From NCBI RefSeq assembly GCF_001677475.2, contig NZ_CP015229.1: a stretch of DNA of 64,000 bases. The stretch is one strand, 5' to 3'. Of the stretch, positions 63,819-64,000 are shown piece by piece (position 1 is the stretch's first letter; each line of letters opens with the position of its first letter). The notes beneath the pieces were generated by a model that was given only the letters and a program-made list of their open reading frames with translations, had not been told where the DNA came from and ran no database searches. Both the position numbers and the translations under genes were made by a program. This DNA is from Escherichia coli. Lineage in GTDB: Bacteria > Pseudomonadota > Gammaproteobacteria > Enterobacterales > Enterobacteriaceae.

Positions 63819-64000
63819 GAAAAACTCCATTTAAAAAAACACAATAAATAGCAAATATTGATGATTCAGAAAAGCATCAATTTTGAGGGCTGGATTATAC
63901 GAATAAATGTGAAAAAAGAAATTAAATACATAAAATGCTAATAGTGAGACATTTTATGAAATGTAGTTATAATCATATGGTTACGCCTTAGCATAAAAAG

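What the first reader, a model, noticed from the sequence alone, without database searches (positions are those of the whole stretch)
63831..64000. AT-rich lpfA upstream region with a short palindrome
The 170 bp upstream of lpfA are strongly AT-rich and contain the inverted repeat TTGATG-n11-CATCAA (about 63859-63881). Such regions in horizontally acquired fimbrial operons are typically bound by H-NS and antagonised by a regulator, but the window ends here, so the promoter and any divergent regulator are not visible.
Basis: inference. Interest (0 to 1): 0.2.

Follow-up and report, generated by a model that had tools for sequence, protein, structure and literature searches.

The report
Promoter and leader region of lpfA

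Summary
Window 63819-64000 is 25.8% G+C, the most AT-rich stretch of the 64-kb window. The palindrome is not special: 33% of dinucleotide shuffles contain a perfect inverted repeat with arms of at least 7 bp.

The stretch is the lpfA-proximal half of the roughly 346-bp yhjX-lpfA intergenic region. This allele is shared at 96.7% with EPEC E2348/69 and six other complete E. coli genomes. In every relative the upstream gene is yhjX, co-directional and followed by its own terminator, so there is no divergent regulator.

The promoter is probably inside the window. A TATAAT at 63899..63894 on the lpfA strand keeps its position across very divergent alleles in Escherichia and Pseudocitrobacter (TATACT in Enterobacter). 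The palindrome would then be transcribed at about +6 to +31 of a ~69-nt leader. As RNA it is a marginal hairpin (-6.3 kcal/mol, z = -1.9), absent from the O157 allele.

H-NS silencing is plausible from composition and from the published H-NS/Ler control of the homologous O157:H7 lpf1 region. It is untested for this allele, and a Ler-regulon array of E2348/69 lists no lpf gene. Already known and of low interest.

The parts
63819..64000 (-). lpfA-proximal 182 bp of the yhjX-lpfA intergenic regulatory region, cut by the window edge. About 165 bp more lie beyond it in relatives.
   Evidence: 25.8% G+C, in the lowest 0.05% of 182-nt windows. 96.7% identical to E2348/69, where the full intergenic region is 346 bp.
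63894..63899 (-). Candidate sigma-70 -10 hexamer TATAAT of the lpfA promoter.
   Evidence: (G)TATAAT is at the same alignment position in all E. coli alleles examined, in E. albertii and in Pseudocitrobacter. One metagenome Escherichia-type allele (L019) has TGTAAT, and Enterobacter-type loci have TATACT or near variants. It sits 58-79 nt upstream of the ATG within otherwise poorly conserved sequence. In E. albertii it forms a 10/12 promoter, TTGCCT-16-TATAAT. No transcription start data were available.
63917..63924 (-). -35 position (ATTTCT at a 17-nt spacer, 2/6 match to TTGACA), overlapping the conserved TAATTT block at 63924..63919.
   Evidence: TAATTT is invariant in alignment A3. In O157 and Pseudocitrobacter this block is part of a second perfect TATAAT about 30 nt upstream of the first. 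The consensus scan does not call a promoter here because the -35 is poor.
63857..63881 (.). The flagged palindrome ATTGATG-n11-CATCAAT. It lies about +6 to +31 of the putative leader, assuming a start near 63887.
   Evidence: P = 0.33 by shuffling. As RNA: -6.3 kcal/mol, z = -1.9, 9 of 200 shuffles fold as well. The TGATG...CATCA core is kept in the E2348/69-type, L015, 100181/EC1515 and E. albertii alleles. It is lost in O157, O145, O169, L019 and PAR. There is no consensus structure over 7 Escherichia-type leaders.
63929..63958 (.). Perfect 9-bp inverted repeat CATAAAATG-n12-CATTTTATG, upstream of the -35 position.
   Evidence: P = 0.035 by shuffling. Present only in the window/E2348/69-type allele and not conserved in other alleles.
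63823..63833 (-). Shine-Dalgarno block TAAATGGAGTT (GGAG at 63828..63825), 6 nt before the lpfA ATG.
   Evidence: Invariant in all alleles and species aligned.
63294..63818 (-). lpfA coding sequence, the long polar fimbrial major subunit (174 aa).
   Evidence: ORF list. RefSeq annotation of the 99.8%-identical gene in E2348/69, A25 and B19374.

Best explanation
Window 63819-64000 is the lpfA-proximal half of the yhjX-lpfA intergenic control region of an lpf1-type (O-island-141-type) long polar fimbriae operon, in the allele carried by EPEC E2348/69.

It most likely contains the lpfA core promoter. That promoter has a conserved -10 TATAAT at 63899..63894 on the minus strand and a poor -35, so it is intrinsically weak or factor-dependent. 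Transcription would start near 63887 and give a ~69-nt AT-rich leader ending in a conserved GGAG ribosome-binding site. The start position and leader length are inferred.

The extreme AT content makes the region a likely substrate for H-NS silencing, as reported for the homologous O157:H7 lpf1 region. This step is inferred by homology and composition and is not shown here.

The flagged palindrome is not a distinct regulatory site. It is within chance expectation and falls in the transcribed leader. At most it forms a weak, lineage-specific 5'-proximal RNA stem-loop.
For: Locus identity:
- lpfABCDE lies on the minus strand, followed by eptB.
- yhjX plus its terminator lies upstream in relatives.
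- The upstream allele is 96.7% identical and lpfA 99.8% identical to E2348/69.

Promoter:
- (G)TATAAT is positionally conserved across alleles whose flanks are only 56-72% identical, and across genera.
- E. albertii has a full 10/12 promoter on that same -10.

Composition: 25.8% G+C, the extreme of the window.

H-NS/Ler control of the O157 lpf1 homologue: as stated in PMC3219716, PMC3891560 and PMC5357955.

Palindrome:
- P = 0.33 by shuffling.
- It lies downstream of the -10.
- It is absent from the O157, O145 and PAR alleles.
- There is no operator consensus above chance, no GATC and no Rfam family.
Against: - No transcription start data for this allele could be obtained. The primary O157 promoter-mapping papers (PMC1952049, PMC3067649) are not in the library.
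- The -35 is poor (2/6), and the consensus scan finds no minus-strand promoter in the window's flank.
- Promoter-like matches in such AT-rich DNA are no more frequent than in shuffles, so the assignment rests on conservation alone.
- The H-NS high-affinity motif is not enriched. There is one 8/10 match, TCGTATAATC, lying on the -10.
- The Ler-regulon array of E2348/69 lists no lpf gene among Ler-activated genes, so the antagonist for this allele, if any, is unknown.
Confidence: 0.7

Rival explanations
1. The palindrome is the local version of a functional 5'-proximal stem-loop in the lpfA leader RNA. Such a stem-loop could, for example, protect the 5' end from RNase E-dependent decay or otherwise modulate expression after transcription.
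For: - If TATAAT is the -10, the stem starts about 6 nt from the 5' end.
- The first 45 nt of the leader fold better than shuffles in most allele families: E. albertii z = -4.3, Pseudocitrobacter -2.4, Enterobacter-type -1.5 to -3.3, window-type -1.6 to -1.9, 100181-type -1.3.
- The stems differ in sequence or register. E. albertii has a C-to-T change that gives G-U. The Enterobacter-type stem varies only by changes that keep A-U or G-U pairs.
Against: - The window's hairpin is weak (-6.3 kcal/mol), and the whole-leader z is -0.7.
- RNAalifold finds no consensus structure over the 7 Escherichia-type leaders.
- No pair shows a two-sided compensatory change.
- O157 and O145 lack a hairpin (z = 0 to +1), and PAR and L019 are not significant.
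- The related alleles share the arms by descent.
- The transcription start is assumed, not measured.
Confidence: 0.2
2. The palindrome is a DNA operator for a dimeric transcription factor. This could be a repressor acting as a roadblock just downstream of the start site, or the anti-H-NS regulator the first reader envisaged.
For: - The arms are perfect 7-bp repeats, and TTGAT/ATCAA are FNR-type half-sites (the consensus is from memory).
- The arms are identical in all 7 complete genomes with this allele, and in metagenome locus L015 with a 10-nt spacer.
Against: - The half-site spacing is 13 nt, not the 4 nt of an FNR site.
- The best matches to FNR, CRP, Fur, Lrp, ArcA, IHF, RcsAB, LexA and LacI-type consensus strings are all within shuffle expectation.
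- A 7-bp inverted repeat arises by chance in a third of shuffles.
- The arms are not conserved in the EHEC or PAR alleles.
- Identity among genomes that are 96.7% identical overall carries no information.
Confidence: 0.07
3. The real lpfA promoter or promoters lie further upstream, beyond the window edge. The conserved TATAAT block would then be conserved for another reason, for instance as an H-NS nucleation site.
For: - About 100 bp of further AT-rich DNA, plus a conserved ATTCCTAAAAA block, lie just beyond position 64000 in relatives.
- Promoter-like matches occur there in O157 and E2348/69.
- As I recall it, the O157 literature describes two promoters, P1 and P2.
- TCGTATAATC matches the H-NS high-affinity motif at 8/10.
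Against: - The upstream promoter-like matches are not above shuffle expectation and are not positionally conserved.
- TATAAT has the most conserved position and sequence in the whole intergenic region apart from the ribosome-binding site.
- It is paired with a good -35 in E. albertii.
Confidence: 0.2

Closest known systems
lpf1 (O-island 141) regulatory region of E. coli O157:H7, silenced by H-NS and de-silenced by Ler (Torres et al. 2007, PMC1952049; Rojas-Lopez et al. 2011, PMC3067649; details from memory, existence confirmed)
   Same: - Same chromosomal site: yhjX, intergenic region, lpfABCDE, eptB.
- Same architecture: yhjX terminator, then an AT-rich tract, a conserved TATAAT, a ~70-nt leader and an identical TAAATGGAGTT ribosome-binding block.
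- Comparable AT content.
- 71% identity over 182 nt.
   Different: - The sequence is a different allele.
- O157 has a second perfect TATAAT 30 nt upstream, where the window has TTTAAT.
- O157 lacks the flagged palindrome (TTGTCG instead of TTGATG) and also the 9-bp inverted repeat.
- H-NS and Ler binding have not been tested on the window's allele.
lpf locus of EPEC O127:H6 E2348/69 (NC_011601.1, 3,964,519-3,964,700)
   Same: The same allele. The upstream 182 nt are 96.7% identical and lpfA is 99.8% identical. The palindrome, the 9-bp inverted repeat, the -10 and the ribosome-binding site are all identical.
   Different: There are six substitutions, five of them in the distal part (about 63960-63992) and one at 63889, just downstream of the -10.
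5'-terminal stabilising stem-loops of E. coli mRNAs (ompA-type; established knowledge, from memory)
   Same: A stem-loop predicted a few nucleotides from the putative 5' end of the message for an abundant surface-structure subunit.
   Different: The stem is weak, is not conserved across Escherichia alleles, and its distance from the 5' end is unknown because the start is unmapped.

Membership tests
lpf1 / OI-141-type long polar fimbriae regulatory region | Lies immediately 5' of lpfA of an lpfABCDE operon inserted between yhjX and eptB (yhjW) | tested here: met
   lpfA-E and eptB lie downstream on the minus strand. yhjX is upstream in all eight annotated relatives where the upstream gene is intact. 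The window itself ends before yhjX.
lpf1 / OI-141-type long polar fimbriae regulatory region | Sequence homology to the characterised O157:H7 lpf1 upstream region | tested here: met
   74.8% identity over the proximal 126 nt by blastn and 70.7% over 182 nt by global alignment.
H-NS-silenced, Ler-antagonised promoter | Markedly AT-rich DNA relative to the genome | tested here: met
   25.8% G+C against 50.3% for the window, the lowest 0.05% of 182-nt windows.
H-NS-silenced, Ler-antagonised promoter | High-affinity H-NS nucleation motif (tCGATAAATT type) | tested here: inconclusive
   There is one 8/10 match (TCGTATAATC, 63893-63902). 38% of 182-nt windows have at least one such match. The motif string is from memory of Lang et al. 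2007.
H-NS-silenced, Ler-antagonised promoter | H-NS binding in vitro or in vivo, and derepression in an hns mutant | not testable with these tools
   No ChIP or reporter data for this allele were found.
H-NS-silenced, Ler-antagonised promoter | Activation by Ler in the strain carrying this allele | tested here: inconclusive
   The microarray Ler regulon of E2348/69 lists no gene between E2348C_3752 and E2348C_3839, the interval that should hold lpf, and the text never mentions lpf. This is negative array data under two conditions only.
Sigma-70 promoter | -10 hexamer close to TATAAT | tested here: met
   Perfect TATAAT at 63899..63894, positionally conserved across alleles and genera.
Sigma-70 promoter | -35 hexamer close to TTGACA at 16-18 nt | tested here: not met
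   ATTTCT at a 17-nt spacer, a 2/6 match. The scan calls nothing on the minus strand of the flank. E. albertii does have TTGCCT-16-TATAAT.
Sigma-70 promoter | Mapped transcription start | not testable with these tools
   The primary papers are not held and literature searches found no start-site data.
FNR/CRP-family operator | TTGAT-N4-ATCAA (FNR) or TGTGA-N6-TCACA (CRP) | tested here: not met
   The half-sites TTGAT and ATCAA are 13 nt apart. The best FNR and CRP matches are both 7/10, within shuffle expectation.
Dam/Lrp phase-variation switch (pap type) | Two GATC sites within Lrp-binding regions upstream of the promoter | tested here: not met
   There is no GATC in 63819-64000. The best Lrp consensus match is 13/15, P = 0.16.
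Invertible promoter switch (fimS type) | Inverted repeats flanking the promoter, plus an adjacent site-specific recombinase gene | tested here: not met
   The only repeat pair that spans the -10 is 79% complementary (I1). The neighbouring genes are yhjX and lpfA, with no recombinase.
5'-terminal stabilising stem-loop / structured leader RNA | A stable, conserved stem-loop at the 5' end of the transcript | tested here: inconclusive
   -6.3 kcal/mol, z = -1.9. There is a tendency across families, but no consensus structure among Escherichia-type leaders and no compensatory pairs. The 5' end is unmapped.
Any curated RNA family (Rfam 15) | A covariance-model match | tested here: not met
   No match with E-value of 1 or less in 63600-64000 on either strand.

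The most novel reading that the evidence does not exclude
A 5'-proximal stem-loop is a recurrent feature of lpfA leaders across Escherichia, Pseudocitrobacter and Enterobacter, and its sequence is not conserved. The window's palindrome would be one weak instance of it. On this reading the stem-loop acts after transcription on lpf expression, through mRNA stability or a temperature- or sRNA-responsive structure, and has been lost in the EHEC O157/O145 lineage.
Probability: 0.15. Interest if true: 0.3.

Novelty: already known. Interest (0 to 1): 0.1.

Why it matters
Very little is at stake. The analysis places the likely lpfA core promoter, leader and ribosome-binding site inside the window. It also shows there is no divergent regulator to look for.

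Anyone extrapolating H-NS/Ler regulation from O157 to this allele should therefore test it directly.

The sharp drop in identity at the start codon between lpf alleles (coding 95%, upstream 56%) suggests that regulatory regions of lpf operons are exchanged or diverge independently of the structural genes. This may explain strain-to-strain differences in Lpf expression.

Tried and rejected
- Primary promoter-mapping papers for O157 lpf1 (DOIs and PMC1952049, PMC3067649, PMC2573367, PMC4307604): not held. Their content is used only as recollection.
- Literature searches for lpf start sites, silencer sequences or ChIP-seq data: nothing usable.
- H-NS high-affinity motif: not enriched.
- Operator consensus scans (Fur, FNR, CRP, Lrp, RcsAB, ArcA, IHF, LexA, LacI-type; strings from memory): all within shuffle expectation.
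- pap-like Dam switch: no GATC.
- fim-like invertible switch: no good flanking repeats and no recombinase.
- Rfam: no match.
- Consensus RNA structure of Escherichia-type leaders: none.
- Plus-strand promoter-like site GAGACA-16-TATAAT (63946-63973), considered as a divergent promoter: rejected. The hexamer is already TGTAAT in E2348/69, it is not conserved in other alleles, and it would point into the 3' end of yhjX.
- The genome-contig scan with the RBS/start motif missed Salmonella, so no comparison with a species that has public start-site maps was possible.

Full report
WHAT IS THERE

The window ends in an lpfABCDE operon on the minus strand:
- lpfA, 63818..63294
- lpfB, about 63226..62540
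- lpfC, 62526..59941
- lpfD, 59925..58870
- lpfE, 58864..58334
- eptB (yhjW), which follows the operon

The finding is therefore the 5' flank of lpfA. That ATG lies inside the invariant Shine-Dalgarno block TAAATGGAGTT, and RefSeq annotates the 525-nt gene from the ATG at 63818. The flank is thus 63819-64000.

CHECK OF THE OBSERVATION

The flank is 25.8% G+C, against 50.3% for the window and 43.0% for the lpf operon. Only 0.05% of 182-nt windows in the 64 kb are as AT-rich.

The inverted repeat exists: TTGATG at 63858-63863 and CATCAA at 63875-63880. It extends to perfect 7-bp arms, ATTGATG and CATCAAT, at 63857-63863 and 63875-63881 with an 11-nt spacer.

It is not more than chance. 33% of 2000 dinucleotide-preserving shuffles contain a perfect inverted repeat with arms of at least 7 bp and a spacer of 3-20 nt. 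The repeat finder lists 24 inverted pairs in 301 nt. A longer perfect repeat, CATAAAATG-n12-CATTTTATG at 63929-63958, is rarer (P = 0.035), but it is specific to this allele.

WHAT LIES BEYOND THE WINDOW EDGE

Core genes in the window are 97-98% identical to E. coli. The 182-nt flank occurs at 96.7% identity in only 7 of 5,426 complete E. coli genomes. These include EPEC O127:H6 E2348/69, strain A25 and strain B19374. lpfA itself is 99.8% identical to theirs. About 416 further genomes carry an EHEC lpf1-type flank, roughly 75% identical over the proximal 126 nt.

In eight of the nine annotated relatives inspected, the upstream gene is yhjX, co-directional with lpfA. The ninth, CUWW06, has an IS1 immediately upstream of lpfA1 instead. 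In E2348/69 the intergenic region is 346 bp. It runs from the yhjX stop through a terminator hairpin (GGGGAGG-CAAT-CCCCTC plus a T-run) and about 100 bp of AT-rich DNA, to the 182 bp seen in the window.

There is therefore no divergent regulator. The window holds the promoter-proximal half of the control region.

WHERE THE PROMOTER PROBABLY IS

I aligned the flank with several divergent relatives:
- E. coli alleles: O157, O145, O169:H41, 100181/EC1515 and the PAR/ST1193 type
- E. albertii, a Pseudocitrobacter MAG and Enterobacter quasihormaechei
- further metagenome loci

Only three blocks stand out in sequence that is otherwise 56-72% identical:
- TAATTT, window 63924..63919
- (G)TATAAT, 63899..63894. 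One metagenome Escherichia-type allele (L019) has TGTAAT, and Enterobacter-type loci have TATACT or near variants.
- TAAATGGAGTT, 63833..63823

The TATAAT sits 58-79 nt upstream of the ATG in every allele. In E. albertii it is paired with TTGCCT at 16 nt, a 10/12 promoter. In the window the -35 position reads ATTTCT (2/6), so the consensus scan did not call it.

I infer a weak or factor-dependent sigma-70 promoter with a start near 63887 and a leader of about 69 nt. This rests on conservation alone. No start-site data could be obtained, because the primary O157 papers are not in the library. Promoter-like matches in this AT-rich DNA are no more frequent than in shuffles.

As I recall it, Rojas-Lopez et al. 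2011 describe two O157 promoters, P1 and P2. These may correspond to the two perfect TATAAT hexamers 30 nt apart in the O157 allele. The window has TTTAAT at the distal one.

THE PALINDROME

On this reading the palindrome lies at about +6 to +31, inside the transcribed leader and downstream of the -10.

As DNA, it matches no operator consensus above chance:
- The TTGAT and ATCAA half-sites are FNR-like but 13 nt apart rather than 4.
- The best FNR, CRP, Fur, Lrp, ArcA, IHF, RcsAB, LexA and LacI-type matches are all within shuffle expectation.
- There is no GATC for a pap-like switch.

As RNA, it is a marginal hairpin: -6.3 kcal/mol, z = -1.9, with 9 of 200 shuffles folding as well. The whole-leader z is -0.7.

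Across alleles:
- The TGATG...CATCA core is kept in the window/E2348/69 type and in L015 (same arms, 10-nt loop).
- It is kept in 100181/EC1515, where the stem is shifted inward to TGATGC/GCATCA.
- It is kept in E. albertii as TTGATGCAT-n5-ATGCATTAA, where a C-to-T change would give a G-U pair.
- It is broken in O157, O145, O169 and L019, and replaced in PAR.

Unrelated stems occupy the same leader position in Pseudocitrobacter and in the Enterobacter-type loci. The first 45 nt of the leader fold better than shuffles in most families, with z from -1.3 to -4.3.

Three things weigh against a functional structure:
- RNAalifold finds no consensus structure over the seven Escherichia-type leaders.
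- The Enterobacter-type stem shows only one-sided changes and no compensatory ones.
- The O157 allele, the one studied experimentally, has no hairpin.

A functional leader stem-loop therefore remains a minority possibility (about 0.2). The default is that the palindrome has no specific role.

H-NS AND AN ANTAGONIST

The composition fits H-NS silencing. Papers in the library state that EHEC lpf1 is repressed by H-NS and de-repressed by Ler, which binds the promoter region directly (PMC3219716, PMC3891560, PMC5357955).

For this allele nothing has been tested:
- The H-NS high-affinity motif is not enriched. The single 8/10 match, TCGTATAATC, lies on the -10.
- The Ler-regulon microarray of E2348/69, the reference strain for this allele, lists no lpf gene among Ler-activated genes.

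The general idea is therefore plausible and already in the literature. Its transfer to this allele is inference.

VERDICT

It is partly wrong: the promoter is most likely inside the window, no divergent regulator exists, and the palindrome is not a supported binding site.

The feature is already known. It is the lpf1-type control region, in an allele already sequenced in E2348/69. Interest is 0.1.

Noticed in passing
window 63249-63283 (minus-strand transcript), between the lpfA stop (63294) and the lpfB start (~63226): A strong intercistronic hairpin, CACAATTGGCG-n13-CGCCAATTGTG. As RNA it gives -21.5 kcal/mol, z = -3.9, and 0 of 200 shuffles fold as well. O157 and EC1515 keep a hairpin at the same place with a different stem (AATGGCGGC/GCCGCCATT). 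It is probably the usual attenuator or stabiliser between the major-subunit and chaperone genes of chaperone-usher operons. It is a far better palindrome than the one flagged.
   Followed up: partly
L002 (E. coli PAR, also ST1193-type genomes) compared with window 63294-64000: A mosaic junction at the ribosome-binding site and start codon. lpfA coding sequence is 94.9% identical to the window, but the 182 nt upstream are only 56.5% identical, and the leader is 17 nt shorter. This suggests that the regulatory region is exchanged, or diverges, independently of the structural gene.
   Followed up: partly
L001 2697-3809 (E. coli B19374); L014 1-284 (E. coli CUWW06): Insertion sequences in the lpf control region of relatives. 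In B19374 an IS421 sits between yhjX and its terminator. In CUWW06 an IS1 ends 46 nt upstream of lpfA1 and removes the conserved -10.
   Followed up: no
About 14-25 nt beyond window position 64000; L004 about 2476-2486 and equivalents in L006, L007, L008, L009: A conserved block, ATTCCTAA(A/T)AA, shared by E2348/69, O157, E. albertii, Pseudocitrobacter and Enterobacter in otherwise divergent AT-rich DNA. It could be an upstream regulatory site of the lpf promoter. It lies just outside the window.
   Followed up: no
window 63946-63973, plus strand: A promoter-like match, GAGACA-16-TATAAT (10/12), pointing away from lpfA towards the 3' end of yhjX. It is not conserved (TGTAAT in E2348/69, absent in other alleles). 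It is probably one of the spurious promoter-like sites common in AT-rich DNA.
   Followed up: partly
window 63393-63412, minus strand, inside lpfA: A terminator-like hairpin with a T-rich tail (CTGACCTGAAAAAAGGTCAG followed by ACAGTTCTTT), about 100 nt before the lpfA stop codon. It was reported by the consensus scan and its function, if any, was not examined.
   Followed up: no
L009, L016-L018, L022, L025-L027, L032 (Enterobacter-type lpfA-like loci): A 10-bp leader stem (CAGAATGCA.../...TGCGTTCTG) with an inner 3-bp stem. It starts about 10 nt after a TATACT -10, gives -10 to -13 kcal/mol with z from -1.5 to -3.3, and varies only by changes that keep A-U or G-U pairs.
   Followed up: partly
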